From a virus: a DNA stretch of 64,000 bases. Positions 13,527 to 28,404 of this stretch are shown here, in pieces. The DNA is taken from the IMG/VR virus record IMGVR_UViG_3300044680_000048, positions 1-64,000 of that record, one strand, 5' to 3'. Made by a program: the position numbers and the translations under genes. The notes below the pieces were generated by a model. The model was not told the origin of the DNA. It did not search any database and was given only the letters and a program-made list of their open reading frames with translations. The first letter of the stretch is position 1. Every line of letters begins with the position of its first letter.

Positions 13527-13535
13527 ATAGAGGCT

Positions 13536-14249: not shown

Positions 14250-14257
14250 AATTTTAC

Positions 14258-14286
14258 TTGACAGGCGGGGAACCGGAAGCTATAGT
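14258..14286 (+). promoter_or_regulatory. sigma70-type promoter (TTGACA-17-TATAGT)
   Basis: TTGACA 14258-14263, TATAGT 14281-14286, upstream of the 14319 gene. Confidence 0.6.
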
Positions 14287-14318
14287 TTAAGAGTAAACCA
14301 AGTTGAGGTTACAGATTA

Positions 14319-14678: not shown

Positions 14679-14735
14679 TTTGCCTTCCGGTCAAGTTTTG
14701 TCTATGTTCTAGGAACAAAAGTGAGGTAATTCATC

Positions 14736-15032
14736 TTGTATATTCACTTAAAAGATATTATAAATGAGCATAAACCAAGGGTAGGTACTGATTCCTGTGG
14801 GAGAAACCTAGGACAATGGCATGATGAAGCAATAAAGGCTCTAATAGCACGGGATCTAAGGTTTAATACAAAAAATGGGCAAATTTGGGATAATAATCTA
14901 GGATTATTGGAAAGGTATAGTAATCCAAGTGATTATGAGCCTACGGAAGATCCAGCCACTATAATGGAATGGAATTTTAGCCGCTATATAAACAATTCTG
15001 CTAGTCGCATATCAAGAGGGTTTAAGCCATGA
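14736..15032 (+). CDS. hypothetical protein (98 aa), TTG start
   Basis: ORF track; GAGG about 11 nt upstream. Confidence 0.5.
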   Translation: MYIHLKDIINEHKPRVGTDSCGRNLGQWHDEAIKALIARDLRFNTKNGQIWDNNLGLLERYSNPSDYEPTEDPATIMEWNFSRYINNSASRISRGFKP

Positions 15033-15137
15033 GTGTGCATAGAGTATGGGCATTAGCGAAAGACAAGTTTAACATCCAAGGGAGAACAATTCATCAAATA
15101 GGGAAAGAGTAGGTTATAACCCCAAATAAATTATAGG

Positions 15138-15166
15138 TTGACAGTGCCAGAAAGGCGTGTTACCAT
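15138..15166 (+). promoter_or_regulatory. sigma70-type promoter (TTGACA-17-TACCAT)
   Basis: TTGACA 15138-15143, TACCAT 15161-15166. Confidence 0.5.
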
Positions 15167-15192
15167 AAATTTATTCCTGAGAGGTAATTCAA

Positions 15193-15522
15193 ATGGCATT
15201 AACATTAGAACAAGTTAAGAATTTATCATACGGCGACCGTGTATATTTCGTTCAAATGTATAAGCCCGTAGAAGGCACAAAAGTTAGGGAATTCCGGGTA
15301 TCTGGTAAGCCTAAAACTTGGAAAACAAGACCTAATGACGTAAAGGTGCCCGTAAAGTATGGTCTATACGAGAATGCTTATATAGGTACGGTTGATGAAT
15401 GTGAGCCGCTTGAAAGATTCTATATGACGCGGGAAGAGGTTGAAATTGAACTACCACCAGTAATCAAGGGTAAAATAGGAACCAAAAAACAAATTAAATC
15501 CCTTAATTCCCTATTGACATAA
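15193..15522 (+). CDS. hypothetical protein (109 aa)
   Basis: ORF track; GAGAGG upstream. Confidence 0.65.
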   Translation: MALTLEQVKNLSYGDRVYFVQMYKPVEGTKVREFRVSGKPKTWKTRPNDVKVPVKYGLYENAYIGTVDECEPLERFYMTREEVEIELPPVIKGKIGTKKQIKSLNSLLT

Positions 15523-15542
15523 AGACTAAGCGGTTTCATAAT
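15514..15542 (+). promoter_or_regulatory. sigma70-type promoter (TTGACA-17-CATAAT)
   Basis: TTGACA 15514-15519, CATAAT 15537-15542, overlapping the 3' end of the upstream gene. Confidence 0.55.
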
Positions 15543-15569
15543 GGTTCCATCAGCTAAGAGGTAAGTAAA

Positions 15570-15824
15570 ATGATAAAAGTTAACCAGGTTCAAGTATTTG
15601 TATTTCAAGCAACTACGGCTAGTAATTTTAGTGGAGTGCGGTTAAAGTCAGGAGATGGTATTAACCTTTACTTTGAGATGAGTAGTCAGGAATCTTTCAA
15701 TCTCGCATCTAAGCTTCTTAAACAGCTATCAAGAAACAGTCGCATGACCGAAAAGGTTCAAAAATTGTTAGAAGAAATTAATGAAGATTACAATCTTTCA
15801 ACTTTGGAGATGTTACGTCTCTAG
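15570..15824 (+). CDS. hypothetical protein (84 aa)
   Basis: ORF track; AAGAGG upstream. Confidence 0.6.
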   Translation: MIKVNQVQVFVFQATTASNFSGVRLKSGDGINLYFEMSSQESFNLASKLLKQLSRNSRMTEKVQKLLEEINEDYNLSTLEMLRL

Positions 15825-15972
15825 ACTCGGTTGACACTGATCTATTGGAATTAGGGAAGGATATTCCTCTAACTTTTGACTACACATATAGGGATGGCTG
15901 TTTTGATAATGACCAACTCTTTGCCGTCTACTCTAATCAAGATATCGCCAAACTCTGTGAGAGGTTATTAGC

Positions 15973-16155
15973 GTGTATGAATTGATTCTGCGTTGCGGGA
16001 AAACTGGTGAAACTATGTCCCCAGTAGTAATTTGCCGGAAGCACTTGTGGGATATCCCACTCAGCGGGCAAGATCTATTCTACGAGTCTGACGCTATTAC
16101 TAGTAATAGCGAGTTGTGTGAGTTTTGCATTCCAGAAATAGCTCTTAACAATTAG
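15973..16155 (+). CDS. hypothetical Cys-containing protein (60 aa), GTG start
   Basis: ORF track; see the finding on the start-less ORF 15785-15987. Confidence 0.45.
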   Translation: MYELILRCGKTGETMSPVVICRKHLWDIPLSGQDLFYESDAITSNSELCEFCIPEIALNN

Positions 16156-16184
16156 TTGACGGACAATAATTCCTAGTGTACAGT
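16156..16184 (+). promoter_or_regulatory. sigma70-type promoter (TTGACG-17-TACAGT)
   Basis: TTGACG 16156-16161, TACAGT 16179-16184. Confidence 0.5.
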
Positions 16185-16218
16185 TATTACATGAACTCCC
16201 AACTGAGGTTTAACTCTA

Positions 16219-17265
16219 ATGGCACATAAATTGGATAACGTACTAACTGTAGGCGACCGTGCTTGGCATGGTCTTGATCAAAACTTAGAGAGTATGTCCG
16301 TAGCGGACATACAAGAGAAAGTACTAAACTTTGAGCCGGTTTACTTTCCTCTAGGGATGACTGATCCGGTCACTGAGCAAATAGTTCAAGCAGAACATAG
16401 AGCGGTCTATCGCGTTCCTACTTCCGTATTTGACGCTTCTCACGTAGAGGATGAGGCGGGATACGAAAAATTTAGTCTCAAGACATGTAAAGGTCTTATC
16501 TCTAGCAATTTCGACAATTGCCGGGAATCCGTAGTTAAATTGTCGGAAGTCGGACCAAGCTATAACCCGCTCTATAATAGAGACCTCCTGAGAATCACAA
16601 GACCAATTTGGGAATCCGGGTTAGTCAATTTAGAGACGGCGGGAACCCTTTTCAATGGTAAGAAAGTTTGGATTCAGGGCAAATTAACCGAATATGAACC
16701 GGTTAAGGGGGATACAAGATTAGGTTATCTTGTAGCGATTAATGCTCACGATTCAAGTATCGCTCCCGGATTCGTTTTTACCGAAGTGCGGGTAGTCTGC
16801 AATAACACCTATAGATTAATGATGGATTCTAAAATTTCTCGGAGATTGCAAGTCAGACACTCTAGTCAAGTAGTTGAAAACTTTGAAGAACTAGCCGAAA
16901 CCTTAGATATGGTCAATGCTCAGTTCTTAGTCCACACCGAAAAACTCAAGAAGTTGGCGGAGATAACGATTCAGTCGGAAGAACAAATTAGACAAATATG
17001 CAAAGTAGCCTATGGCGTAACTGAGAGAAAAGGTCGTACAGAGGACGCGATTGTAGAAGCGTTTGAAACCGCACCCGGTAACAATCAAGAGGGAATCCGA
17101 GGAACGGGATTAGCCTTGCACGAAGCATTTACCTATTACCTGACTCACATCGCCGGAAACAAGAATACAACCGAGGATCACCGGAAGGATTCGAATCTCT
17201 TCAACACACTTAATGCCAAATTTGTAGGTAAGGTTGATGCGACAATCCTGGCAATAGCGGGCTAA
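16219..17265 (+). CDS. DUF932 / phage-plasmid-like protein (TIGR03299-like)
   Basis: 348 aa; N-terminus MAHKLDNVLTVGDRAWHGLDQNL matches the family's ..PWHGLG.. start; GAGG upstream. Confidence 0.75.
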   Translation: MAHKLDNVLTVGDRAWHGLDQNLESMSVADIQEKVLNFEPVYFPLGMTDPVTEQIVQAEHRAVYRVPTSVFDASHVEDEAGYEKFSLKTCKGLISSNFDNCRESVVKLSEVGPSYNPLYNRDLLRITRPIWESGLVNLETAGTLFNGKKVWIQGKLTEYEPVKGDTRLGYLVAINAHDSSIAPGFVFTEVRVVCNNTYRLMMDSKISRRLQVRHSSQVVENFEELAETLDMVNAQFLVHTEKLKKLAEITIQSEEQIRQICKVAYGVTERKGRTEDAIVEAFETAPGNNQEGIRGTGLALHEAFTYYLTHIAGNKNTTEDHRKDSNLFNTLNAKFVGKVDATILAIAG

Positions 17266-17305
17266 AGCCCTACAAACCGCTGGTAGACCGGTCAAAAGTC
17301 TACCG

Positions 17306-17334
17306 TTGACAAGTCTTGCCGGAAGGTATAAGAT
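17306..17334 (+). promoter_or_regulatory. sigma70-type promoter (TTGACA-17-TAAGAT)
   Basis: TTGACA 17306-17311, TAAGAT 17329-17334; the spacer contains TTGCCGGAA. Confidence 0.55.
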
Positions 17335-17365
17335 AAGAGAGTCAAGAGCAACTGAGGTTTATGTT

Positions 17366-17584
17366 ATGAGCAAATTAGAATCAGTATTCAATGGCTTTAC
17401 AAACAAACAGATACTTGTGTTGGGATATGCATTGAGCCAATACATCGAAGATTCAACTAATACTTACAATTTCATCTCAGGAACTGAAGCGGACGAGGCT
17501 CGGTTGCTACTCAATGCTTTGAGCGACTATCAAGATCTTAAGAAAAAGCTTGATAAACTCACAGAAGAGATGATGATCTACTAG
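17366..17584 (+). CDS. hypothetical protein (72 aa from ATG 17366)
   Basis: GAGG upstream of ATG 17366; the track start at 17306 is the -35 hexamer. Confidence 0.6.
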   Translation: MSKLESVFNGFTNKQILVLGYALSQYIEDSTNTYNFISGTEADEARLLLNALSDYQDLKKKLDKLTEEMMIY

Positions 17585-17625
17585 AGCGGGAGCCATACTG
17601 ATCTATACTAAAGGGAATAACCGCA

Positions 17626-17814
17626 ATGCAAGATCTTAAGAAAGAAGTTAAGAAGCAACATGCCCGGAAGGTCAATTCTTGGAATCGGCTGGTTACAAAC
17701 ATTTACTCAAAAGCCAACGAAAACCAGTATTATAAGGATCAGAGTGAATTTCAGCTCTCAGTTTTCAAGCTGGTAGAGGAATTCAAACTAATGAAACGTA
17801 GGGGGATGGTTTAA
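17626..17814 (+). CDS. hypothetical basic protein (62 aa)
   Basis: ORF track; AAGGGA upstream. Confidence 0.55.
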   Translation: MQDLKKEVKKQHARKVNSWNRLVTNIYSKANENQYYKDQSEFQLSVFKLVEEFKLMKRRGMV

Positions 17815-18022
17815 TGATAATTCAACCAAGACCAAGAAATATGATAGTCTACCGGAATTGAGAATGTCCCTTCAGACTTCCAAGGGGCTTTGGTCCAATC
17901 AAAGATTAGGAATTTTACCATACAAGATCTTACTGTTTGTATGCTATCTTGCGGGAAGGTCTTGATCCATACTTAAGAAGTAAGGGCAATTGAGTACCAA
18001 GTAATTATCAGGAGCAGCCAAA

Positions 18023-18253
18023 ATGACAAAACAAGATTACCTAGCTAAATTCGAGACACAAGCGGACGCCGTTGAATTCGAGACTCAGTACCTATCAATA
18101 GGCGATGAGTTCCTACCGCCATGCGCCCGGCTTGTGTGTGCTGGCGGTGAGCCTACAGCCAAATACTGGAAAACACTTTGTGAGCAAGTCTCAATTCTGA
18201 ACTCTACCCAAACGGCGTTGAAATCGCTGAAACTGTCAAATCTACATGGGTAG
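18023..18253 (+). CDS. hypothetical protein (76 aa), possibly frameshifted into 18184-18372
   Basis: AGGAG upstream; a protein-like start-less ORF continues in the -1 frame. Confidence 0.5.
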   Translation: MTKQDYLAKFETQADAVEFETQYLSIGDEFLPPCARLVCAGGEPTAKYWKTLCEQVSILNSTQTALKSLKLSNLHG

Positions 18254-18392
18254 GCTTTGGCAGACAAGCAAATGGCTCTCCGGTACTGGCTATCGAGAAG
18301 GCTACCTACGGACTAGCAATCGAAGCCGTCAAACAAGCAAAGGCGAAAGGACAAGTAGCATTTATTATCTAACAGTATGTATGCTATTTGCT

Positions 18393-18427
18393 AAGACTAG
18401 GTGATTATCACCTGGTCTTCCTTTTCT
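18393..18427 (+). terminator. intrinsic terminator
   Basis: AAGACTAGGTG..CACCTGGTCTT, an 11-13 bp stem (one G-U), followed by CCTTTTCT. Confidence 0.7.
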
Positions 18428-19145
18428 GAAGTAGGCTCCTACTTGGTCAGGCAATCCCTACTACAACTTGTAGTTGTCAACCCTTTGTCAACAAATATTA
18501 CATTAGAAGAAATTAACTTGACAAATACAAAAATATCCAAGACGCTTTGCCTGGCTGTTCAATTATGGTTTATAGTAGAATGTGCCCTTGCGGATGAACT
18601 TATATAGTGTAGTAAGCAGCGTCTTACTATTCCGGCAAGACAGTTTATTACTGTCTATCTTAGTAGGGTGAACGTCTTGGTTATGTGCTCGTTCTCGCCT
18701 GGAATGACTCCAGGAATCCCCATACACATTATTGTATCAATTACAAGTTATATATCTCTTATTTTGATGTTCCGGTCATCTTAGTATTGCCGCAAAGGCA
18801 ATACAGTATTACAATACAGAGCATTTGCCTTATACGGCGTCTTTTAGATGTTCTGCTTATGAGTACACCTTACCGGAAGATAGTTTATTAGAGACGCCTA
18901 GCAGGCGCCACAAGCTTATTACCTCTACTAGTAGTAGCTATTAGTTGTATTAGTAGGGCTAGAGGTATTATTTAACTTGACTTGCCGGCAAAGCAGTAGT
19001 AGGTTGACAAACCTACTACTATGTGGTAGATATCTACTGCCTTACCATACATCATCTTACTGTGTGTATGTATTGCCGGAAGGCAATACTATATCTGTAT
19101 GTGGTATATTGGAATAGTAAGGCACAAGACAAAGAGGGACCGGCA

Positions 19146-19271
19146 ATGTACAATATTATTCTTGATAATGGGCAAACAGTGCAGATGTCCGAAGATAACT
19201 ACAATCTAGTATCTGTATGGGACGGGGAAGCCGATACCCTTGCTATTATCCTCTCACTAGTAGGTGTCTAA
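19146..19271 (+). CDS. hypothetical small protein (41 aa)
   Basis: AAGAGGGA upstream of ATG 19146; the longer track ORF from 19023 is unlikely. Confidence 0.4.
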   Translation: MYNIILDNGQTVQMSEDNYNLVSVWDGEADTLAIILSLVGV

Positions 19272-19393
19272 TGAATAAGAAAGTAATTATGGCTAGATCA
19301 CTAGCACTGTCAATACAGTCCGGTAACTTGGGCTTGGAAAGAAAGAAAGAAGCTTTTATGTTCCTTGCCAGCTTACTGAAGCAATTGAAATAA
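19271..19393 (+). CDS. hypothetical small protein (40 aa)
   Basis: TAATG coupling; below track cutoff. Confidence 0.4.
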   Translation: MNKKVIMARSLALSIQSGNLGLERKKEAFMFLASLLKQLK

Positions 19394-19424
19394 CCCCGCC
19401 CCAGTACTGATAGCCACCCCTACT

Positions 19425-19454
19425 ATGCCGGAAAGACATTCCGGCATTATTTAT
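19425..19454 (+). terminator. intrinsic terminator built from an inverted GCCGGAA word pair
   Basis: ATGCCGGAA (19425-19433), loop AGACA, TTCCGGCAT (19439-19447), then TATTTAT. Confidence 0.65.
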
Positions 19455-19578
19455 ATGCTGATCTACTATAGGATATAGATGAACATCAGATGTTCAACTA
19501 CGGCGGGTAGTGGTTTTTTTCTACTACGGCGGATAGGAGATTACTAGGACGCCCCTCTAATTTAAAATTGTGGGGACC

Positions 19579-20847
19579 TGAGACCTACTTTTTTAAGCTG
19601 GGGGGGCTCTACTTTTTTATCAACCTAGACTAAACGACTTCAACTTTACTGTCGTCGCCAATCATCAATCTAAAGGCAATTGGTTTCATCATTCCGCGCG
19701 TCAGTTCTACGTTTACGCCGATCAAGCTGTCTTCGATGCGTCCGTGGAAATCTAAGATTTGGCAATTCTCACGAAGGATGCAGTGCCCGAGTTCTGTATG
19801 ACTTACCCGAGCGCGGTCGCCGATGGAGGTGAAAGGACCAACGTAGCTATCTTCCAACATGCAGTCTTCGCCGATCACTGCCGGTCCGCGCACGACACAG
19901 TTCTTCAAGACGCTGCCTTTGCCGACGTGAACGCGTCCGGAGATGCGCGAGTCACCTTCTGCGGTGCCCAGCATTGATACGTCGGTCATTTCGTCGAGAA
20001 CGACGCGGTTTGCTTCCAGCATGTCGTCTTTCTTTCCGGTATCGAGCCACCAGCTCTGCAAAACGTAGCTATCTACGTGGTGTCCGATGTTGATCAGATG
20101 CTGAATCGCGTCCGTTATTTCCAGTTCTCCGCGCTTGCTAGGCTTGATTTCGTCGATTGCGCGATGAATATTTTTGTTGAACAGATACACTCCAACCAGT
20201 GCCAGATTGGATTTCGGCTTGGCCGGCTTCTCTTCCAGGCAGATTATTCGCCCTTCTTCAGTCAGTTGAGCAACACCGAACGAGCTGGGATTCGCGACCT
20301 CCTTCAAAAGAATGAACGCATCGGCTGTGCCTTCGTTGAAGCGTTTGACCAGGGGCGCAACACCATCTTTGATCAAGTTGTCGCCGAGATACATGACGAA
20401 TGTGTCGTCGCCGAGAAATGGGCGAGCTGTCTTTACGGCGTGGGCAAGCCCTAGCGGCTGCGCCTGTTCGATATAGGTGATTTTGATGCCCCAGTGGCTG
20501 CCATCACCGACGACGGCTCTCACATCCGCTCCGGTTTCAGGGCTGATGATGATACCGATATCGTGTATTCCAGCGCTCTTAATGGCTTCGATGCCATAAT
20601 AAATGATCGGTTTATTCGCAACGGGAAGTAGCTGTTTAGCGGCTGTGTGCGTTATTGGCCGCATGCGAGTACCCTTGCCGCCGCTTAAAATTAGTCCTTT
20701 CATTTTTTGCGCCCTTTTGTGATTCAACCACGCTCTAGTAAGCGCCGCGTAGGACGCTTTTCTGTATAAATCTTAAGAATCAGTTCTACTTTTTTAAGCA
20801 CAACCTTGGCAATCAACTTATTAACACCTGAACTTTTTTAGGTCTCA
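19579..20847. other. GC-rich foreign cassette bracketed by repeats
   Basis: CTACTTTTTTAAGC at 19585-19598 and 20786-20799; TGAGACCTA 19579-19587 versus TAGGTCTCA 20839-20847; composition shifts at both ends. Confidence 0.6.
19630..20703 (-). CDS. rmlA: glucose-1-phosphate thymidylyltransferase, long form (nucleotidyltransferase + left-handed beta-helix)
   Basis: MKGLILSGGKGTRMRPIT..KQLLPVANKP.., LGLAHAV, EKP, hexapeptide-like C-terminal part; ATG 20703 with AAGGG upstream (the track's TTG 20727 is less likely). Confidence 0.88.
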   Translation of the reverse strand: MKGLILSGGKGTRMRPITHTAAKQLLPVANKPIIYYGIEAIKSAGIHDIGIIISPETGADVRAVVGDGSHWGIKITYIEQAQPLGLAHAVKTARPFLGDDTFVMYLGDNLIKDGVAPLVKRFNEGTADAFILLKEVANPSSFGVAQLTEEGRIICLEEKPAKPKSNLALVGVYLFNKNIHRAIDEIKPSKRGELEITDAIQHLINIGHHVDSYVLQSWWLDTGKKDDMLEANRVVLDEMTDVSMLGTAEGDSRISGRVHVGKGSVLKNCVVRGPAVIGEDCMLEDSYVGPFTSIGDRARVSHTELGHCILRENCQILDFHGRIEDSLIGVNVELTRGMMKPIAFRLMIGDDSKVEVV

Positions 20848-20853
20848 TATATT

Positions 20854-21438
20854 TTAAGTCCACTGGTCAGCCATGGCATTTGCAATACCTTGATAGGTCT
20901 TGGATCTTTCTTTCCACCTATTTTCAGAAGGTGGTAAGTAGTGGAGTCTTTGAGCCAAAGCTTTATTTTGGGGCAGTTCTACTATATTAGTAGGCTTTAA
21001 ATTTGGTAGATTCTTAAGCCACAAGCACGTAGCTTTCCTCTCAGGATGTCCATACTGGTATGGTTGAATTATCTGGTCCGGTTTTCTATAATTACTGGAC
21101 ATTACCCCAATAGGATTTTCTATTGCTACTTTAGGGATACTAGAATTGGCGAACAACATGAAGAACTTTATAGCCTCTTCCCTGTCTTGTACTCTAGTAG
21201 GGAATCTATCTTTGAATTCCGGTTTCATCCATTTATTACCTGATACAGTTAAAAAGGTACAAGGAGGATGAGCTATCATAAGGTCCCAAGATTCATCAAG
21301 GACTTCCCTTATGTCTCCTTGATAGTGAGGTCCCTCTCTCTCTGTAGGCAGTAAATCACAAGACATTGCATCATGACCCTTGGCAATAAATGCGTCTCTA
21401 ACTATTCCCGAATACTCACAAGCTATTAATATTTTCAT
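20854..21438 (-). CDS. small phage-type DNA (cytosine-5) methyltransferase-like protein
   Basis: MKILIACEYSG.VRDAF...GHDA.SCDL, AHPPCT (PC motif IV-like), ENP, RKPDQIIQP, TY.GIA.AMA.QW; family remembered from phage annotations. Confidence 0.6.
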   Translation of the reverse strand: MKILIACEYSGIVRDAFIAKGHDAMSCDLLPTEREGPHYQGDIREVLDESWDLMIAHPPCTFLTVSGNKWMKPEFKDRFPTRVQDREEAIKFFMLFANSSIPKVAIENPIGVMSSNYRKPDQIIQPYQYGHPERKATCLWLKNLPNLKPTNIVELPQNKALAQRLHYLPPSENRWKERSKTYQGIANAMADQWT

Positions 21439-22108
21439 TCTTTTTCATTGTTCCCCAAGGGTTATATTTACCTGGATAAGATCTCTGGGCGGAATAGTAC
21501 TTCCGGAAATAGAGGGGATATTTCTTCCCTAATCCCCGATTAGCGTAGTTATTCTCATGTTGTATTACTCGCCGGACTATATGATTAGCAACCTCAATTG
21601 GTGGAAGATTCTTGTAATTGAAGTGCCATAAGGTATCATTAAGATTCTTATATTCTCTGTACTGTATCCAGAACTTCCCGTCTTTATTAGTTCCTAATTT
21701 TAGATCTACACTCCTGTGCCGGATTAATTCAAATTGTATTCCAACCCAAGGAGATCCCTTTTGGATAGTTATTAACCAATCTTCATGGCGTATCCCCCAA
21801 CCTGTATGGTGAGAGACGGATTCCAGATAGAACCTCTCAGCAGCGGCAATAGCCTCTTCAGTTAAGTATTCATTTATTTCTTTTCGGAAGGAGTCAAATA
21901 AATCTCTGAACTTCTCTAGTTCAGATTTCCATTGAAGATATGCCCCTATTGCTGAATCAGTTTGAGTAGAAAAATGCTTAGGTGGGAACTCCATATCAGG
22001 ACCCAAAGCCATTCCGGTTGCGTCCATCCAAGTTTCAGTTTTTCTCTTTTCTCGGGCAGCATCAATCTGAAGTTGCCAAAACTCTATTAAACTTTCTATT
22101 TCTCTCAT
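21416..22108 (-). CDS. hypothetical protein (230 aa)
   Basis: ORF track; 23-nt overlap with the downstream MTase-like gene. Confidence 0.65.
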   Translation of the reverse strand: MREIESLIEFWQLQIDAAREKRKTETWMDATGMALGPDMEFPPKHFSTQTDSAIGAYLQWKSELEKFRDLFDSFRKEINEYLTEEAIAAAERFYLESVSHHTGWGIRHEDWLITIQKGSPWVGIQFELIRHRSVDLKLGTNKDGKFWIQYREYKNLNDTLWHFNYKNLPPIEVANHIVRRVIQHENNYANRGLGKKYPLYFRKYYSAQRSYPGKYNPWGTMKKNENINSL

Positions 22109-22269
22109 TAAACTTATCCTACTTTTTAAGGCTCAGGGTAATACTTTTTATATTCCTCATAAGCTTCTTCTGTTATATACACATCCCTTAATAAAAGAAA
22201 ACTTACTATAGCCCATTATTTAATGCCCCAAGTCATCTTCTAATTTCTTAATCATTTCCCACCTACAGC

Positions 22270-22446
22270 CTAACGTCCTAAAGTAGCAACTTTATTATAC
22301 AACCCTTCGGGGTCTACTGTCAAGTAGTCTCTGGGGGTTCTATAGTCAATATATGAATTAGGTGTATCCCACCATAATTTAATATTCTCAGGACTAAAAA
22401 AATCAGATAGTTGAAGATTAATTAATCTTTCCCAATCAATTGGCAC
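22270..22446 (-). CDS. small protein (58 aa) resembling an Xre/MbcA/ParS-type (DUF2384) toxin-binding domain
   Basis: GTG start overlapping the upstream TAG (TAGTG); ..LWWDTPNSYIDYRTPRDYLTVDPEGLYNKVATLGR fits the W..PN...TP.d.L...G...V...L.R pattern; below track cutoff. Confidence 0.4.
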   Translation of the reverse strand: MPIDWERLINLQLSDFFSPENIKLWWDTPNSYIDYRTPRDYLTVDPEGLYNKVATLGR

Positions 22447-22712
22447 TATTCATCCTCTATAAGGCTATAGTCCAGATGGTCAAATTGTTCCTTTAACTCT
22501 CTAATTAATTTCTTGGTTAGGCGGAAGAATGATCCATCTCCTCCATCTCCAGCACTTATATAATACCCGGCTTTATCCCATTGGGTATCCTCCGGGTAAT
22601 ATAGTAACTCCATACGCATCCCATATGTTGGGTCATACCAGCAACACAATTTCTGTTTCTTATTCCCATATGTATCCATTAGGTCTTCTCCAGCATCTAA
22701 GTTAAAGTTCAT
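22446..22712 (-). CDS. hypothetical protein (88 aa)
   Basis: ORF track; ATGA-type coupling. Confidence 0.6.
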   Translation of the reverse strand: MNFNLDAGEDLMDTYGNKKQKLCCWYDPTYGMRMELLYYPEDTQWDKAGYYISAGDGGDGSFFRLTKKLIRELKEQFDHLDYSLIEDE

Positions 22713-22966
22713 TCATCTAATCCTCTATAAAATTTCATCGCTATTCTCTTGATTTCATGTTCTTTATGTTCAGGGTAAAGATCAGATAGAAGGGCATTCA
22801 TACAAAAATATACAATATAACACCCCTTCATGATCTTCGGATCTTCATCTACATAAAAATTAAGATTCCGGTCCATGTAAAATCTACATTCTATAGGACT
22901 CCCGGCTTTGCGGTAAGCATCCATAAGATTATTATAGATCTCAGTTTCTAATGTACTCTTTATCAA
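22709..22966 (-). CDS. hypothetical protein (85 aa)
   Basis: ORF track. Confidence 0.6.
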   Translation of the reverse strand: MIKSTLETEIYNNLMDAYRKAGSPIECRFYMDRNLNFYVDEDPKIMKGCYIVYFCMNALLSDLYPEHKEHEIKRIAMKFYRGLDE

Positions 22967-23399
22967 TGAAGACTTCTCCGTTGAGGTGGTCTATTTCGTG
23001 TATGATACAGCGGGCAAGAAGTCCATCAGTAGATAATTGGTGAAGCTGTCCACGAAGGTCTTGGTACTTTACAAATATAGAGGAACTCCTCTTAATGTCA
23101 AGGTATATTCCGGGAAAACTTAAACAACCTTCCCGCCCAACCTCCTCAATAGTAGAAAAAGAACAAATCTCAGGATTAACCATAACTCCACTGAAGTTAG
23201 GCGGAACATCTACGACTATAACCCTCAAAGATTTTCCAACTTGAGGGGCGGCAAGACCTAAACCCTTATTGTCAAACATTACACTGAACATACCTTTTAC
23301 TAGAAGACGTAGATGTCCGTCAAACTCAGTGATAGGTTTAGCAATTTTCTTAAGAATAGGATCGGTAGATTTAACTAGTCTAAAGGTACTCATCAACAT
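22941..23399 (-). CDS. def: peptide deformylase
   Basis: All three PDF motifs are present: GLGLAAPQVG, EGCLSFPG, HEIDHLNG. Confidence 0.9.
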   Translation of the reverse strand: MLMSTFRLVKSTDPILKKIAKPITEFDGHLRLLVKGMFSVMFDNKGLGLAAPQVGKSLRVIVVDVPPNFSGVMVNPEICSFSTIEEVGREGCLSFPGIYLDIKRSSSIFVKYQDLRGQLHQLSTDGLLARCIIHEIDHLNGEVFIDKEYIRN

Positions 23400-23580
23400 G
23401 GGACTCTACCCATTCTCTTAACATTATTCCTACAGGGACTTTTAAGGTATCAGAAATTATGATAATTTTCTCAATGGTTTCCGGAGAGAGTTTAACAGTA
23501 AGTTGCCCTTTAGCGGCAATCCTTTTTCGTGTATCAATTCTAGACTGCTTTCTCCAAGCTTCTAATTTCTCTTTATCCAT
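23380..23580 (-). CDS. possible ribbon-helix-helix (CopG/BrnA-like) small protein
   Basis: ..LTVKLSPETIEKI...LREWVESHV pattern; weak. Confidence 0.45.
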   Translation of the reverse strand: MDKEKLEAWRKQSRIDTRKRIAAKGQLTVKLSPETIEKIIIISDTLKVPVGIMLREWVESHVDEYL

Positions 23581-23613
23581 TTAAGAATAACTCCGAATGT
23601 TCCTTAATAGACT

Positions 23614-23829
23614 CTAGGAGAGGTGGCAATATTCATCAATCATGTCCCTCAAAAGACTTATTTCTTCATCTGACAGTTCCCACATATTACCATCTTGGAC
23701 TCCATAACCTAAAGAAATTACAATTGAAGGCTTTAGGGGTTTTCCATCATCTGTTATTCCCTTAAAGGTTATCCCAATAGAAGAATCGGGACTCCCTAAA
23801 AAACTATATACCTTCCTATTAAAGACCAT
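23614..23829 (-). CDS. hypothetical protein (71 aa)
   Basis: ORF track. Confidence 0.55.
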   Translation of the reverse strand: MVFNRKVYSFLGSPDSSIGITFKGITDDGKPLKPSIVISLGYGVQDGNMWELSDEEISLLRDMIDEYCHLS

Positions 23830-24286
23830 TAATTAATTCATCCGTAGTGAGTTTCTTTATTACTGTAAAGTTAGAAGAAGTAGCCCCTCTTAGACCTTGC
23901 CGGACAATATTGCCAGGATAGAACATATCTACTGTCTCCATACCAGATTTAAGAAAAACGATAAGGGTCTCATACCCAGAAGAAACTAAGAAAAGACCGG
24001 AAGCCTTCTTAAGATCTAATTCCTCTTCTTTCCTAATCTGTTCTTCCAAATCTTGGACAACTTTCTTAGCCTCTTTAAGCTGTTCCGATAAAGCTGTGAC
24101 CACCAGAGTTAAGTTATTAGGGAAATATCCACCATTCATTTGGCCCATATTATTACGAACATCCCATTCTACATGTACATATGGCTCACCTATACGGACC
24201 ACATGTCCTATGGCATCTGTTCTTTTATCCGTTCTATAATTTGGTCCTAGTTGAACTTTATCTCCTACTTTAAATTTATTCTCCAA
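23819..24286 (-). CDS. hypothetical protein (155 aa)
   Basis: ORF track. Confidence 0.6.
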   Translation of the reverse strand: MENKFKVGDKVQLGPNYRTDKRTDAIGHVVRIGEPYVHVEWDVRNNMGQMNGGYFPNNLTLVVTALSEQLKEAKKVVQDLEEQIRKEEELDLKKASGLFLVSSGYETLIVFLKSGMETVDMFYPGNIVRQGLRGATSSNFTVIKKLTTDELINGL

Positions 24287-24479
24287 AGAATTCCTTCCTT
24301 TCTGTTTTAGTGAGGCTATTTTCCCAAGCTATATCCATTAAATTTCCTAACTGTTTTTGAACTTTCCGGACTTCTTCAATAAAGCTTGCCGGAAGATTAA
24401 CATTCTGATGAAATAGTTCCAATACATCATTAGAACAAGATACTCTTTCATAAATAGGAATCCAATCTTTTTTAACCAT
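24276..24479 (-). CDS. hypothetical protein (67 aa)
   Basis: ORF track. Confidence 0.55.
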   Translation of the reverse strand: MVKKDWIPIYERVSCSNDVLELFHQNVNLPASFIEEVRKVQKQLGNLMDIAWENSLTKTERKEFFGE

Positions 24480-24583
24480 TATCCCTCATCTATTTGAACA
24501 GGTTTTGCCTAGTATACCAAATAATGACTAGTAACATTACAATGAACGTAACCATTATTACGGTCAAGGTTAAATCATCCATC

Positions 24584-25018
24584 TTAAATCATTGTCCTAT
24601 TAAAGAGTTGAAAGTCTTGAAGTCTTCTTTCGTGGATAGAAGCAATTCCCTTATCAAGGGAGAACCATTTATTGATATTAGTCATGTCTTCCAACATACC
24701 AGACTTTAGTAGTTTTGTCAACCCTACGTTGAATAGAACATCAGCTAAGGCATTCCATTGATTTTGATTTAAGGGGACCGGAACCACCTTAGATAATTCT
24801 ACATCAACTTGAAGGATATCTTTATTAAATATTTCATAAACTTTCTGGTCATTAAGGGTAGCGGAAAGCATCCAACCCTCTGCGGGAAGAACTATATAAT
24901 GCCCAATTCCTATAGAGTGCCCCTTATTGTCTTTATAGGCTTCATATCTCTTCTTCTCGAAAGAAGCAATAAAATCTTTGCCGGATTGATCTGTATTCAT
25001 TTGTATGTAACTCCCCAA
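24584..25018 (-). CDS. T4-type lysozyme (GH24) endolysin
   Basis: FIASFEKKRYEAYKDNKGHSIGIGH matches the catalytic E...D...T/S-IGIGH core of GH24. Confidence 0.8.
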   Translation of the reverse strand: MGSYIQMNTDQSGKDFIASFEKKRYEAYKDNKGHSIGIGHYIVLPAEGWMLSATLNDQKVYEIFNKDILQVDVELSKVVPVPLNQNQWNALADVLFNVGLTKLLKSGMLEDMTNINKWFSLDKGIASIHERRLQDFQLFNRTMI

Positions 25019-25248
25019 ATTCGATTTCTAGTACGGGAACCCCTAGTTACTACTAGATTATTAGGAACAAAATAATGCTTATCCACTCTAATAAACTTTA
25101 TCCGCTTATTAGAAATAAGTCCATGTATGTCTTGTGTAGACCATAGTTCCCTGTGGCAGAACTCACTCAAGGAGATATAGTCTGCCGGAAGTCTACCTTC
25201 CTCTTTAAGAGTAGTGGTTTTCTTTTTTAAAAAAGCTAAAGTAGTCAT
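24997..25248 (-). CDS. hypothetical protein (83 aa)
   Basis: ORF track. Confidence 0.55.
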   Translation of the reverse strand: MTTLAFLKKKTTTLKEEGRLPADYISLSEFCHRELWSTQDIHGLISNKRIKFIRVDKHYFVPNNLVVTRGSRTRNRIWGVTYK

Positions 25249-25291
25249 GTTAGAATACTACCATAGTAATAGGTTAGAGGTCAAGATATAA

Positions 25292-25501
25292 ATGGTTACG
25301 ATTGCGGAAATTACTACAGTTCTAGATCAGCTTGTTGCTGATGCCCAGAAATTTGCTACGGTAGAGCCTACCTTTCTGACAGAACTTACGACAGCAGTAG
25401 CTGCTGTTAAGGCTGTTATTCCTACTAGTACTCTAAAAGGTCTAGAAGCAGGTGCAGTTGCAGATCTACATAAATTTGAAGCTCTTTTTAAAAAGAAATA
25501 A
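25292..25501 (+). CDS. hypothetical Ala/Val-rich helical protein (69 aa), lone + strand gene
   Basis: ORF track; followed by a strong terminator. Confidence 0.5.
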   Translation: MVTIAEITTVLDQLVADAQKFATVEPTFLTELTTAVAAVKAVIPTSTLKGLEAGAVADLHKFEALFKKK

Positions 25502-25527
25502 TCTTTTTTGCGGACTACTTAAAAATT

Positions 25528-25560
25528 AAGACTCCCAATTGGGAGTCTTTTTGTTGTTTA
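25528..25560 (+). terminator. intrinsic terminator
   Basis: AAGACTCCC-AATT-GGGAGTCTT followed by TTTGTTGTTT. Confidence 0.8.
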
Positions 25561-25580
25561 CTGTACAGTAAATATTAAAA

Positions 25581-25612
25581 AGGCTCCGTTTCCGAAGCCC
25601 TTTCTTTTTTTG
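25581..25612. terminator. bidirectional terminator-like hairpin
   Basis: GGCTCCG-TTTC-CGAAGCC (one mismatch) with T-runs on both strands; lies just after the minus-strand stop at 25617. Confidence 0.55.
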
Positions 25613-25616
25613 TCTA

Positions 25617-25949
25617 CTAGCTAGCCGGAGCTTCAGGAGCAGCTGGTACGGCATCGGCAGCATCTAGTGCAGCTTGTGCAGCAGCAATTGAAGCGCCTAC
25701 AGCAGTAGCCTGATCCACGTCACTTTGGGTGACAGAATTAGCCAGAGCAGCAGCATAATCAGCGGCTACACGGGCCACGTCTTGTGAAAGAGCAGCCGCA
25801 TCTGCTGTAGCAGCAGCAAGGGCACTCCTAAGTGAATCTATTAGAGCCATGGTTTCTTTTAATTCCTTATTGAGTAAATTGTACGTACAATACTGATTGT
25901 ATAACAAATCTGTAAAGGCGGAAAGCCTTTCCCTAATCCACTTCTTCAC
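25617..25949 (-). CDS. hypothetical Ala-rich protein (110 aa)
   Basis: ORF track. Confidence 0.55.
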   Translation of the reverse strand: MKKWIRERLSAFTDLLYNQYCTYNLLNKELKETMALIDSLRSALAAATADAAALSQDVARVAADYAAALANSVTQSDVDQATAVGASIAAAQAALDAADAVPAAPEAPAS

Positions 25950-27249: not shown

Positions 27250-27443
27250 TTTCTATACTCATCCATATTAATAACATTCTCTTCCGGTCGGACTATTACT
27301 ATTTCATTTACTACAGAGGCATCTACTAGCTCATAAAGAAGGAGGGAAAAGATCTCCTTATTGTAGATTGAATCTTCATCCAGTGTAACAGATTCTAGGA
27401 GTAAAGGGAGCTGTAATCTAAGATCCTTTAATCTAACCTTCAT
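27246..27443 (-). CDS. hypothetical protein (65 aa from ATG 27443)
   Basis: The track's longer start (27530) would overlap rmlB by ~100 nt; the internal ATG overlaps by 11 nt. Confidence 0.45.
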   Translation of the reverse strand: MKVRLKDLRLQLPLLLESVTLDEDSIYNKEIFSLLLYELVDASVVNEIVIVRPEENVINMDEYRK

Positions 27444-28404
27444 CAAAGTAGCTGGTAGCAAAAGCCTTCTTATACCATTCGAGGAGTTCCGGAACACTTT
27501 CTTCAAGGGTGTACTCTGGTTTCCAACCAAGGTTCCTTAGCTTACTACTGTTGACAAAATAACGTAAGTCATAACCTGGTCTATCTTTCACAATTTTGAT
27601 GAGGTTAGAGAATCCGAACAACTCTACTACTTCTTGGGGAGACTTTTCGGCATTAGCAGAAACATTGTAGACTTCTCCGGCTTTCCCTTTCTCTATAACA
27701 GTAAAGATGGCGGAACAATGATCATAAACATGGAGCCAGTCTCTTAAAGCAGGAGTTTCAAAAATGGTAATCTCTTCTCCGGCAAGACCTTTCTTGATGA
27801 TAGTAGGAATTAACTTATCCTGTTGCCGGGTGCCAAAATTATTAGAACAGCGGGTAATTCTTACATCTAAACCATAAGTCTTATGGTAAGAAAGGGCAAG
27901 AAGATCACTAGCTGCTTTACTAGCAGAGTAGACAGAGGAAGGGTTAAGAATTTGGTCTTCATCAAAACCTAGTTCCTTGAGTTCACTACTCCAGTAGGAA
28001 GAATTACTAGACGTGCTATAGCTTCCATATACTTCATCACTCGAAACAATTATTAAAGGAATCTTAAATTCTTTAGCTATTTTACAGATACGGGAAGTAG
28101 CTAAGTAGTTAGTATCAAATAGTTCTGGGTCATCTATAGATGTGTCTACGTTAGACAAAGCTGAAAAATGAGTGATTAATTCCGGATTGTGTCCTTTACT
28201 TAAGATATCCGTATGGATAGAGAGGCATTCCACATTGGCAAAAATTTGATCACATTTAGCTTTTCTATTTTCATCTAGAAGGTTGCTTCCACAGCTTCCC
28301 TCTAACATTCCATCTACGCCCACAACTTTATGTCCAAGTTTGAGGGCAACATCTACAAAGTGGGAACCAATAAAACCAGCGTTTCCAGTAACTAATATTT
28401 CCAT
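27433..28404 (-). CDS. rmlB: dTDP-glucose 4,6-dehydratase-like SDR
   Basis: GNAGFIGSH Rossmann motif, SSDEVYG, YSASKAASD (YxxxK), CSNNFG, RDWLHVYDHC, DRPGYDLRY, LGWKP. Confidence 0.85.
   Translation of the reverse strand: MEILVTGNAGFIGSHFVDVALKLGHKVVGVDGMLEGSCGSNLLDENRKAKCDQIFANVECLSIHTDILSKGHNPELITHFSALSNVDTSIDDPELFDTNYLATSRICKIAKEFKIPLIIVSSDEVYGSYSTSSNSSYWSSELKELGFDEDQILNPSSVYSASKAASDLLALSYHKTYGLDVRITRCSNNFGTRQQDKLIPTIIKKGLAGEEITIFETPALRDWLHVYDHCSAIFTVIEKGKAGEVYNVSANAEKSPQEVVELFGFSNLIKIVKDRPGYDLRYFVNSSKLRNLGWKPEYTLEESVPELLEWYKKAFATSYFDEG

What the first reader, a model, noticed from the sequence alone, without database searches (positions are those of the whole stretch)
19579..20847. GC-rich ~1.2-kb cassette with a long-form RmlA, bracketed by a 14-bp direct repeat and a 9-bp inverted repeat
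The rmlA-like ORF (19630-20703) is visibly GC-rich: roughly half G+C, with GCG/CGC/GTC-type codons, in a high-30s %GC genome. Composition switches within tens of bp of each gene end.

CTACTTTTTTAAGC occurs exactly at 19585-19598 and 20786-20799. TGAGACCTA (19579-19587) is mirrored by TAGGTCTCA (20839-20847).

This is the footprint of a recently inserted foreign gene. It could be a moron, the cargo of a tiny mobile element, or a recombination within a repeated intergenic element. The long-form enzyme (nucleotidyltransferase plus left-handed beta-helix) is a cellular type.
Basis: partly seen in the sequence, partly recalled or inferred. Interest (0 to 1): 0.75.

Follow-up and report, generated by a model that had tools for sequence, protein, structure and literature searches.

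The report
Host rmlA gene captured by phage
A large uncultivated phage has recently copied one sugar-activating gene (long-form rmlA) out of the chromosome of its likely Obscuribacterales host; a sister phage still shows the empty site, so this is a very clean but ordinary example of a phage picking up a host gene.

Summary
ORF 19630-20703 (-) is a full-length long-form glucose-1-phosphate thymidylyltransferase. Its GC is 0.52 and GC3 0.60, against a phage mean GC3 of 0.34, the top outlier of 97 ORFs. Both repeats are exactly where stated.

The main reading, a recently inserted foreign gene, is strongly supported.
- **Donor found.** Two bacterial contigs (L004, L190) carry Bac_transf-rmlA-rmlB in Obscuribacterales-type synteny. 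They are 97% nucleotide-identical to window 19631-20749 and unrelated outside that span.
- **Empty site found.** Sister phage L166 has one copy of a ~50-nt intergenic element where the window has element B, then host DNA, then 31 nt, then element A.
- **Not a chimera.** Independent assemblies (L005, L187) carry the same junctions.
- **Gene maintained.** dN/dS is 0.03.
- **Plausible partner.** A native RmlB-like dehydratase (27433-28404) could use the product.

The 14-bp direct repeat is significant (P<2e-4). It is the conserved end of a diverged duplicate of that element, not a target-site duplication. The 9-bp inverted repeat is compatible with chance (P~0.06). Nothing supports a transposon.

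Verdict: a host-derived accessory gene in a variable region, and a new member of a known kind. It is useful as a junction-resolved case and as a host link.

The parts
19630..20703 (-). Long-form glucose-1-phosphate thymidylyltransferase gene (rmlA_long), 357 aa, including the TAG stop
   Evidence: Pfam NTP_transferase plus hexapeptide. TIGR01208 scores 464.6 bits, above the 320 cutoff. It is 99.2% aa and 97.1% nt identical to bacterial L004, with dN/dS 0.03.
19631..20749 (-). The host-derived segment of 1119 bp. It holds the last ~15 nt of the donor's upstream Bac_transf gene, a 30-nt intergenic leader with RBS, and rmlA through its stop codon.
   Evidence: blastn gives 97.05% to L004 positions 179-1296 and 96.9% to L190 positions 9648-10764. 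Nothing outside this span matches in either bacterial contig.
20750..20799 (-). Intergenic element copy B (GCTTAAAAAAGTAG-N28-GCGTCCTA). It is the ancestral-type copy and abuts the host DNA directly.
   Evidence: It is 84% identical to the single copy in sister phage L166 (L166 1512-1584). The 14-mer is and the 8-mer.
19545..19598 (-). Intergenic element copy A (GCTTAAAAAAGTAG-N32-GCGTCCTA). Its ends match copy B but its middle is unrelated. It is followed by DNA collinear with the sister phage.
   Evidence: Alignment A1 and the composite-pattern search, which finds only these two copies in the window.
19599..19629 (-). A 31-nt filler between the rmlA stop and copy A. It holds a third partial copy (GATAAAAAAGTAGAGC, 19609-19620).
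   Evidence: It has no match in the donor contigs, and the sister has only a single element at this site. Its origin is unexplained.
19551..19607 (+). A stable, strand-specific RNA hairpin on the + strand, built from copy A plus filler. A T6 run follows at 19613-19618. It may be a terminator or insulator for the convergent + strand genes.
   Evidence: The + strand folds at dG -32 kcal/mol with z = -4.36, and 0 of 200 shuffles reach that. The - strand gives z = -0.41. The consensus terminator scan did not call it, so the function is inferred.
19579..19587 (+). It lies in the loop and 3' arm of the hairpin.
   Evidence: The chance probability is about 0.06.
20839..20847 (-). Right copy of the 9-bp inverted repeat, just after the methyltransferase stop codon.
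   Evidence: It lies about 90 nt outside the host-derived DNA.
20854..21438 (-). DNA methyltransferase-like gene (phrog_757) with native composition. It is also absent from the sister phage.
   Evidence: L166 has about 140 bp where the window has about 600 bp.
21416..22108 (-). A conserved 230-aa phage gene, used as the anchor for finding relatives.
   Evidence: P0122 on L166 is 88% aa identical. dS against L166 is 0.27.
27433..28404 (-). Native phage RmlB-like NDP-sugar 4,6-dehydratase, the likely consumer of the RmlA product.
   Evidence: TIGR01181 scores 248 bits, below its 365 cutoff. Pfam gives GDP_Man_Dehyd/Epimerase. It is 36% identical to host RmlB, with GxxGxxG, SDE and YxxxK motifs aligned. 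GC is 0.387. A syntenic homologue exists in the distant relative L167.
19425..19447 (+). A canonical intrinsic-terminator-like hairpin that ends the convergent + strand gene block.

Best explanation
The window is part of a tailed-phage genome of at least 112 kb and about 40% GC.

**Capture (shown).** After this phage split from its sister lineage (L166), it acquired a 1119-bp piece of a bacterial chromosome of about 50% GC. The piece is the first gene of a Bac_transf-rmlA-rmlB-rmlD(-rmlC) cell-envelope sugar operon. The donor belongs to the Obscuribacterales, non-photosynthetic Melainabacteria/Vampirovibrionia, which is therefore the probable host.

**Insertion site (shown).** The piece begins 46 nt upstream of the rmlA start and ends at the stop codon. 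It sits at the far end of a leftward operon, where leftward and rightward genes converge. This spot carries different cargo in every relative examined. The piece lies directly downstream of a conserved ~50-nt intergenic element.

**The repeat (part shown, part inferred).** It is not a target-site duplication. I infer one of two routes: illegitimate insertion between two pre-existing element copies, or recombination through the element with another phage genome or circle that already carried rmlA.

**Function (inferred).**
- The gene is intact and under purifying selection.
- It brought no obvious promoter, so it is probably transcribed by read-through from the phage operon.
- It would make dTDP-glucose from dTTP and glucose-1-phosphate during infection.
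- That product would feed the phage's own RmlB-like 4,6-dehydratase, giving dTDP-4-keto-6-deoxyglucose for a 6-deoxyhexose. The end use is unknown.
For: **Donor.**
- L004 is 97.05% identical over 1119 bp, with unrelated flanks.
- L190 is a 47-kb contig of GC 0.498, 99.5% identical to L004. It matches the window over the same span.
- Both are collinear with Obscuribacterales loci at 70-77% nt.
- In the GTDB scan the top eight hits (77-88% aa) are seven Obscuribacterales/Melainabacteria MAGs plus one MAG deposited as Planktothrix sp. The next tier is 59% or less.

**Direction of transfer.** The gene's GC of 0.52 matches the donors (0.49-0.54) and not the phage (0.40).

**Empty site.** L166 is 88-89% nt identical in the flanking genes. 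It has a single element joined to the sequence that follows copy A in the window.

**Timing.** dS of rmlA against L004 is 0.12. dS between the sister phages is 0.27.

**Not an assembly artefact.** L005 is 100% identical over 17.8 kb and spans both junctions. L187 is 99.7% identical across the left junction.

**Selection.** 27 of 31 differences are at third codon positions and 3 are nonsynonymous. dN/dS is 0.03.

**Phage nature.** SU10-like capsid protein, lysozyme, peptide deformylase and many small ORFs.

**Variable cargo.** The genes downstream of the 230-aa gene differ in L166, L167, L168, L188 and the ERZ1426851 contig.

**Partner enzyme.**
Against: - dS of 0.12 to the best sampled bacterial allele means either the true donor strain is unsampled or the transfer is not very recent.
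- No AT-ward drift is detectable. The phage has AT where L004 has GC at 9 sites, and the reverse at 15. The differences therefore cannot be dated on the phage branch.
- No promoter-like site was found for rmlA, and expression is untested.
- No rmlC, rmlD or clear glycosyltransferase was found in the 64 kb. The only hint is a weak phrog_2456 hit at 4463-5407. The end product is unknown.
- The RmlB-like protein scores below its family cutoff.
- The origin of the 31-nt filler and of copy A's diverged middle is unexplained.
- The host assignment rests on this one shared segment.
- The empty site is known from one 1.6-kb contig only.
Confidence: 0.85

Rival explanations
1. **Cassette exchange through the repeated element (PeSL-like).** rmlA was first captured elsewhere, in another phage or locus. 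It then entered this genome by homologous recombination between copies of the ~50-nt element, for example by integration of a small circle carrying the element and rmlA. That would leave one resident-type copy (B) and one incoming-type copy (A). This is a rival only for the insertion step.
For: - Copies A and B share exact ends (14/14 and 8/8) but have unrelated middles.
- rmlA is only 3% diverged from the donor, so copy A cannot be a duplication made at insertion that then diverged by mutation.
- B is sister-like throughout (84%), as a single crossover in the terminal 8-mer would predict.
- Related short motifs (C/T)TAAAAA(A)GT sit at five gene boundaries between 19585 and 22132.
- There is a precedent in T4-type phages (PMC2839356, PMC4122927).
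Against: - Only two full copies exist in 64 kb, both at this locus.
- No other phage carrying the element or rmlA was found in IMG/VR or the JGI metagenomes.
- No sigma-70-like promoter lies in either copy.
- B and the sister's copy do not fold.
- An 8- to 14-bp crossover is very short for homologous recombination.
Confidence: 0.3
2. **Cargo of a tiny non-autonomous transposable element.** The 9-bp inverted repeat would be its terminal inverted repeats and the 14-bp direct repeat its target-site duplication.
For: Both repeats exist and bracket the gene.
Against: - The inverted-repeat copies lie 44 and 90 nt outside the host-derived DNA. A match of this length is expected by chance in about 6% of trials.
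- The right copy lies in the stretch that aligns with the sister's empty site, although the 9-mer itself is not conserved there.
- The direct repeat lies inside the inverted repeat on the right side and overlaps it on the left. That is the wrong geometry for a target-site duplication.
- The direct repeat is part of a longer element that pre-exists as a single copy in the sister.
- No transposase is present and no other copies occur in the window.
Confidence: 0.03
3. **Assembly chimera.** A bacterial read or contig was wrongly joined into a phage contig.
For: The abrupt composition switch is what a chimera would look like.
Against: - A Logan assembly of SRR35360315 is 100% identical over 17.8 kb and spans both junctions.
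- A JGI contig from another dataset (Ga0187847) is 99.7% identical across the left junction.
- The same protein also sits on a 111,990-bp JGI contig.
- The insert is 3% diverged from the bacterial alleles and is trimmed to one gene.
Confidence: 0.02
4. **The sister's 'empty site' is a secondary deletion.** The common ancestor carried B-rmlA-A, and L166 lost the insert by recombination between the direct repeats.
For: Direct repeats flanking a gene do promote such deletions. L166's single copy could be a B/A recombinant that crossed over in GCGTCCTA.
Against: - rmlA is closer to bacterial alleles (dS 0.12) than the two phages are to each other (dS 0.27).
- There is no amelioration of composition.
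- The more distant relatives L167, L168 and L188 also lack rmlA.
Confidence: 0.07
5. **Reverse transfer.** The bacteria acquired rmlA from a phage.
For: None specific.
Against: - In the bacteria the gene sits in a conserved Bac_transf-rmlA-rmlB-rmlD operon, collinear across the Obscuribacterales-type loci examined at 70-77% nt.
- Its GC matches the bacteria and not the phage.
- The phage copy includes the last ~15 nt of the upstream bacterial gene.
Confidence: 0.02

Closest known systems
RmlA/RmlB auxiliary metabolic genes of virulent coliphages (phAPEC8/rV5-like) and rfbA AMGs in viromes (PMC6969025, PMC11097641)
   Same: These phages carry a glucose-1-phosphate thymidylyltransferase together with a dTDP-glucose 4,6-dehydratase-type enzyme. 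Both are accessory genes with no known role in virion assembly. tblastn finds 207 phage records with RmlA-like genes.
   Different: - The best-matching phage genes, including the coliphage ones, align only to residues 1-235 at about 40% identity (short-form type). Only 21 of the 207 records cover 80% or more of the query.
- Here the enzyme is the long form with the beta-helix C-terminus.
- It is 97% nt identical to a cellular allele.
- It was added to a lineage that already had the dehydratase.
Morons of tailed phages (Hendrix and colleagues; recalled from knowledge)
   Same: A single extra gene is present in one phage and absent in a close relative. It lies between conserved genes at the end of a transcription unit, has deviant base composition, and is dispensable for the core life cycle.
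   Different: Classical morons carry their own promoter and terminator. Here no promoter was detected. The only strong hairpin is on the opposite strand.
PeSL mobile regulatory cassettes of T4-type phages (PMC2839356, PMC4122927)
   Same: Short conserved intergenic repeats flank variable genes in hyperplastic regions. Indels between sister phages start and end at the repeats.
   Different: - PeSLs combine a sigma-70-like early promoter with a terminator stem-loop and occur many times per genome.
- This element shows no promoter consensus.
- Its ancestral copy has no stem-loop.
- Only two full copies occur in 64 kb.
Host-derived AMGs of cyanophages such as psbA and peptide deformylase (recalled from knowledge)
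   Same: A metabolic gene is copied from the host lineage and kept under purifying selection. This phage also has a peptide deformylase.
   Different: Cyanophage AMGs are mostly old and compositionally adapted, and they form phage clades. This copy is unadapted, and its donor species can be identified.

Membership tests
Long-form glucose-1-phosphate thymidylyltransferase (NCBIfam TIGR01208 rmlA_long) | Whole-protein score above the curated equivalog cutoff | tested here: met
   464.6 bits against a cutoff of 320.25, covering model positions 1-352 of 353.
Long-form glucose-1-phosphate thymidylyltransferase (NCBIfam TIGR01208 rmlA_long) | N-terminal nucleotidyltransferase fold plus C-terminal left-handed beta-helix (hexapeptide) domain | tested here: met
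   PF00483 covers residues 2-236. PF00132 and PF25084 cover residues 250-335.
Long-form glucose-1-phosphate thymidylyltransferase (NCBIfam TIGR01208 rmlA_long) | Catalysis of dTTP + glucose-1-phosphate -> dTDP-glucose | not testable with these tools
   Inferred from 99.2% aa identity to a bacterial operon-encoded orthologue, with no indels.
Phage moron / auxiliary metabolic gene | Present in a phage genome but absent at the same site in a close relative | tested here: met
   L166 has the empty site. The phage context is shown.
Phage moron / auxiliary metabolic gene | Cellular origin and deviant composition | tested here: met
   97% nt identity to L004 and L190. GC3 is 0.60 against 0.34.
Phage moron / auxiliary metabolic gene | Own promoter and terminator (strict moron definition) | tested here: inconclusive
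   No promoter-like site lies between 20704 and 20853 on the - strand. The only candidate is a 9-of-12 match at 20879-20851, inside the end of the methyltransferase gene. No - strand terminator follows the gene.
PeSL-type mobile regulatory cassette | Sigma-70-like promoter inside the repeat | tested here: not met
   The consensus scan finds none in 20750-20799 or 19545-19598.
PeSL-type mobile regulatory cassette | Terminator stem-loop inside the repeat | tested here: not met
   Copy B and the sister's copy give z-scores from -0.8 to +1.1. Only copy A plus the filler folds, and it does so on the opposite (+) strand.
PeSL-type mobile regulatory cassette | Many copies dispersed in hyperplastic regions | tested here: not met
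   There are two full copies in 64 kb, both at this locus. The remaining ~48 kb of the genome was not available.
PeSL-type mobile regulatory cassette | Indel end-points between sister genomes coincide with the repeats | tested here: met
   The host DNA starts at the last base of copy B, and collinearity with the sister resumes at the last base of copy A.
IS/MITE-like transposable element | Terminal inverted repeats at the ends of the inserted DNA | tested here: not met
   The 9-bp inverted repeat lies 44-90 nt outside the host-derived DNA, with P about 0.06.
IS/MITE-like transposable element | Identical target-site duplication directly abutting the ends | tested here: not met
   The repeat copies are 50 and 54 nt elements with unrelated middles. 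One of them is separated from the host DNA by 31 nt.
IS/MITE-like transposable element | Transposase, or multiple copies elsewhere | tested here: not met
   rmlA is the only ORF with a family match in the unit. The 14-mer and the 9-mer occur only here.

The most novel reading that the evidence does not exclude
The ~50-nt element (GCTTAAAAAAGTAG...GCGTCCTA) and the related short motifs at neighbouring gene boundaries could be a recombination 'docking' system. It would be analogous to PeSL cassettes but unrelated in sequence and structure. This lineage of Obscuribacterales phages would use it to capture host genes and shuffle cargo between phages. The rmlA unit would then be a freshly loaded cassette caught in the act.
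Probability: 0.15. Interest if true: 0.55.

Novelty: new member of a known kind. Interest (0 to 1): 0.35.

Why it matters
This is an unusually well-resolved natural example of a phage capturing a host gene.
- The donor species, both junctions to within a few bases, the pre-insertion site and the relative timing are all recoverable from public metagenomes.
- It gives a sequence-based host link between a large, otherwise unannotatable phage lineage and Obscuribacterales, a poorly studied non-photosynthetic sister group of Cyanobacteria. More than 90% of this phage's large proteins have no family match.
- It suggests a testable functional logic. A phage that already had the second enzyme of the dTDP-6-deoxyhexose pathway has now added the first.

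It does not reveal a new kind of system.

Tried and rejected
- **INPHARED megablast of 18500-22000:** no match.
- **Sister phages via the methyltransferase in IMG/VR:** only 55-64% aa relatives from unrelated phages, so not informative.
- **230-aa gene in IMG/VR:** no relatives.
- **Element pattern in IMG/VR:** 17 hits, none related to the window by blastn or tblastx, so chance matches.
- **Element pattern in JGI metagenomes:** one chance hit inside ribosomal-protein genes (L186) and one contig of the same phage (L187).
- **Protein search with the 67-aa ORF on the other side of the site:** only itself.
- **L167's 355-aa gene at the equivalent position:** checked as a possible RmlA. It is unrelated.
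- **Genome-wide enrichment of TAAAAAAGT:** 10 copies against 2 expected, all on one strand. Outside this locus the flanks share no conservation, and by eye several copies look as if they lie in coding sequence, so it was not accepted as a regulatory motif.
- **Rfam scan of 18500-22500:** only sub-threshold chance hits.
- **AT-ward amelioration on the phage branch:** none detectable.
- **Microhomology at the junctions:**
  - TAGTAA is shared by the pre-insertion site and the donor next to the left junction.
  - AGGTTGAT is shared 46 nt downstream in the donor.
  - Both were noted by eye. Neither fits a simple crossover product, so they were not used.
Full report
**1. The observation**

- The ORF at 19630-20703 (- strand) is 357 aa.
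- Pfam finds an N-terminal NTP_transferase domain (3e-60) and a C-terminal hexapeptide/left-handed beta-helix region.
- NCBIfam places it in the equivalog TIGR01208 rmlA_long at 464.6 bits, above the 320 cutoff.
- In 200-bp windows GC rises from about 0.39-0.44 to 0.51-0.59 between 19700 and 20700. It falls back to 0.38-0.39 by 20800.
- I called 97 non-overlapping ORFs in the window. Mean GC3 is 0.336 (sd 0.074). This ORF has GC3 0.598, the strongest outlier.

The repeats behave differently.
- The 14-mer CTACTTTTTTAAGC is exact at 19585-19598 and 20786-20799 only.
- In 5000 first-order Markov resamplings of the two 151-bp flanks, none gave a direct match of 14 or more.
- The 9-bp inverted repeat is present. 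A match of that length between the flanks arises in about 6% of resamplings.

**2. What the window is**

The window looks like a tailed phage.
- It has long same-strand runs of small ORFs and a block of very large - strand ORFs.
- It encodes an SU10-like major capsid protein (52761-53954), a lysozyme, a peptide deformylase, a patatin-like protein and one tRNA-Met.
- Most large proteins match no family.
- GC is about 0.40 across all 64 kb.
- Identical proteins sit on a 111,990-bp JGI contig.
- There is no nucleotide match in the INPHARED phage collection.

**3. The donor**

The protein search returned only cellular-type relatives. The named hits are mostly Melainabacteria/Obscuribacterales.

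*More distant orthologues.*
- The 89-91% aa hits (L001-L003) lie in Bac_transf-rmlA-rmlB-rmlD-rmlC operons next to ferrochelatase and malic enzyme. Those contigs have GC 0.51-0.53.
- They are 78-79% nt identical to the window, and only across the ORF.

*The decisive contig, L004 (JGI, 1.9 kb, GC about 0.5).*
- It carries the C-terminus of Bac_transf, then rmlA, then the N-terminus of rmlB.
- It is 97.05% identical to the window over exactly 1119 bp (L004 179-1296 = window 20749-19631). Its flanks are unrelated to the window.

*A second bacterial contig, L190.*
- This 47-kb contig from ENA/NCBI has GC 0.498 and the same wider synteny.
- It is 99.5% identical to L004.
- It matches the window over the identical span at 96.9%.

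*Taxonomy.*
- L004 is collinear along its whole length with Obscuribacterales loci at 70-77% nt.
- In the scan of GTDB species genomes, the top eight hits are 77-88% aa identical. Seven are Obscuribacterales/Melainabacteria MAGs and the best is deposited as 'Planktothrix sp.'. The next tier drops to 59% or less in other phyla.

So the transferred DNA is window 19631-20749. It comprises the last ~15 nt of the donor's upstream gene, the 30-nt leader with its ribosome-binding region, and rmlA up to its stop codon. The direction is host to phage, for three reasons. The gene's composition matches the bacteria. Its bacterial context is a conserved operon. The phage copy still carries a stub of the upstream bacterial gene.

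**4. The empty site**

The adjacent 230-aa phage gene (21416-22108) has few relatives. One of them, on the 1.6-kb contig L166 (GC 0.37), comes from a sister phage. It is 88-89% nt identical to the window in the genes upstream.

L166 lacks both the methyltransferase gene (20854-21438) and rmlA. In the three-way alignment it has one copy of an element:

GCTTAAAAAAGTAG-N28-GCGTCCTA

That copy is followed directly by GTAACCACCTAC...GAAAAAAACCACTACC.

In the direction of rmlA transcription, the window reads:
1. Copy B (20799-20750), which is 84% identical to L166's copy.
2. The host DNA, which starts at the very next base.
3. After the stop codon, 31 nt of filler holding a partial third copy (GATAAAAAAGTAGAGC).
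4. Copy A (19598-19545). It has the same 14-nt and 8-nt ends but an unrelated 32-nt middle.
5. GTAATCTCCTA...GAAAAAAACCACTACC, which is collinear with L166 again.

Relative to the sister, the extra DNA is therefore 19545-20749 (1205 bp).

More distant relatives each carry different genes after the 230-aa homologue. These are L167, L168, L188 and a contig in ERZ1426851. None of them has rmlA. The end of this operon is therefore a variable region.

**5. Timing and selection**

- The phage copy and L004 differ at 31 of 1074 positions.
- 27 of the differences are at third codon positions. Three change an amino acid (D47H, I64V, E306G).
- dS is 0.119, dN is 0.0036 and dN/dS is 0.03.
- The two sister phages differ by dS 0.27 in the neighbouring 230-aa gene.
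- The capture is therefore younger than their split, if rates are comparable. That also argues against the empty site being a later deletion.
- Polarising the differences with five outgroups shows no AT-ward drift in the phage copy.
- Much of the 3% may therefore be variation among donor strains.

**6. Not an assembly artefact**

- A Logan assembly of SRR35360315 (L005) is 100% identical to window 12859-30703 and spans both junctions.
- A JGI contig from another dataset (L187) is 99.7% identical to 22125-20627 and spans the left junction.

**7. What the repeats are**

The 14-bp direct repeat is real and non-random, but it is not a target-site duplication.
- It is the conserved 5' end of a ~50-nt element that exists once in the sister.
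- The two window copies share their ends, but their middles are unrelated.
- rmlA is only 3% diverged from its source. Copy A therefore cannot be a duplicate made at insertion that later mutated. It was either already there as a second, older copy, or it arrived with the insert from another genome.

The composite pattern occurs only twice in the window. It was not found in related contexts in IMG/VR or the JGI metagenomes.

Folding shows one strong structure.
- Neither B nor the sister's copy folds better than shuffles.
- Copy A plus the filler forms a 57-nt hairpin on the + strand only: dG -32 kcal/mol, z = -4.4, with 0 of 200 shuffles reaching that value. The - strand gives z = -0.4.
- A T6 run begins 6 nt after the stem.
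- The hairpin relies on G-U pairs, which explains the strand specificity.
- I read it as a possible extra terminator or insulator against the convergent + strand genes. This is inferred. The consensus terminator scan did not call it.

The 9-bp inverted repeat has one copy in this hairpin. The other lies just after the methyltransferase stop, in the stretch that aligns with the sister. With P about 0.06 and the wrong geometry, I treat it as chance.

**8. How it most likely works**

*Shown:*
- a host gene is present and intact,
- it is under purifying selection,
- it sits at the end of a leftward phage operon.

*Inferred:*
- Only 46 nt of upstream host DNA came along, and in the donor that DNA is an intra-operon spacer. 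No promoter-like site lies between the methyltransferase stop and the start codon. Transcription is therefore probably read-through from the phage operon, and translation would use the imported ribosome-binding region.
- The enzyme would convert dTTP and glucose-1-phosphate to dTDP-glucose.
- The phage lineage already encodes an RmlB-like short-chain dehydrogenase at 27433-28404.
  - Its best family is dTDP-glucose 4,6-dehydratase, TIGR01181, at 248 bits. That is below the 365 cutoff.
  - It is 36% identical to the host RmlB, with the GxxGxxG, S-D-E and YxxxK motifs aligned. The role of these motifs is recalled from structural work on RmlB.
  - It has native composition.
  - A syntenic homologue exists in the distant relative L167.
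- The new gene thus supplies the substrate for an older phage enzyme. Together they give the first two steps of dTDP-6-deoxyhexose synthesis.
- The use of the sugar is not determinable here. Candidates are host envelope remodelling, virion glycosylation and nucleic-acid glycosylation.

**9. Comparison with what is known**

- Phage-borne RmlA and RmlB are known accessory genes in virulent coliphages (PMC6969025). rfbA appears in virome AMG lists (PMC11097641).
- By tblastn, the best-matching phage genes, including the coliphage ones, align only to residues 1-235 at about 40% identity (short-form type). Only 21 of 207 records cover 80% or more of the query.
- The locus meets the operational definition of a moron or AMG. 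An own promoter and terminator could not be shown.
- It resembles PeSL-mediated shuffling in T4-type phages (PMC2839356, PMC4122927), because indel end-points coincide with a repeated intergenic element.
- The element fails three defining PeSL features: the promoter, the stem-loop in the ancestral copy, and many dispersed copies. I therefore do not file it there.
- It is not an IS- or MITE-like element.
- Phages predicted to infect Obscuribacterales have been reported from metagenomes (PMC12801794, PMC11222151). The host link is therefore useful but not new in kind.

**10. Verdict**

- It is a new member of a known kind, a host-derived accessory gene in a variable region of a phage genome.
- Interest is modest at 0.35. 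The value lies in the resolution of the event and in the host and pathway hypotheses it makes testable.

Noticed in passing
window 20854-21438 (-): The DNA methyltransferase-like gene (phrog_757, no Pfam hit, native GC) is also missing from sister phage L166. L166 has about 140 bp in its place. This is a second presence/absence difference at the same variable site.
   Followed up: partly
window 22130-22191 (-); L167 12340-12406: An orphan coding remnant (..ITEEAYEEYKKYYPEP*) is homologous to the C-terminus of a 355-aa gene of the distant relative L167. It sits just upstream of the 230-aa gene and ends in GCCTTAAAAAGTAG, a near-copy of the 14-mer.
   Followed up: partly
window 12055-12984 (+), 10945-11130 (+), 9941-10264 (+): There are long GCT-rich (Ala-rich) 9-nt periodic coding repeats. 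A 12-nt periodic repeat lies inside a DUF6745 protein gene (9764-10942). These give the locally raised GC at 12-13 kb.
   Followed up: no
window 25528-25556 and 52704-52732: A 29-nt palindromic, terminator-like repeat (AAGNCTCCCAATTGGGAGNCTTTTT) is present twice at 90% identity.
   Followed up: no
window 22941-23399 (-), 57222-58061 (-), 56204-56282 (+): Other accessory-type genes are a peptide deformylase (2e-44), a patatin-like phospholipase (8.5e-30) and a tRNA-Met.
   Followed up: no
window 11370-11564 (+), 58054-58494 (-), 18023-18253 (+): Three small ORFs have moderately raised GC3 (0.48-0.52) and no family match. They may be older foreign acquisitions.
   Followed up: no
window 1-44 and 90-133: A 44-nt direct repeat at 95% identity lies at the very start of the window.
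   Followed up: no
window 4463-5407 (+): There is a weak PHROG match to a glycosyltransferase family (phrog_2456, 3.5e-8) and no Pfam hit. It could be a user of the nucleotide sugar, if real.
   Followed up: no
L086 (DATNPN010000043.1): The best GTDB hit for the rmlA protein (88% aa) is deposited as 'Planktothrix sp.'. The other seven hits in its 77-88% tier are Obscuribacterales/Melainabacteria MAGs, and L004 is collinear with L086 across Bac_transf-rmlA-rmlB. The label may be a taxonomic misassignment.
   Followed up: no
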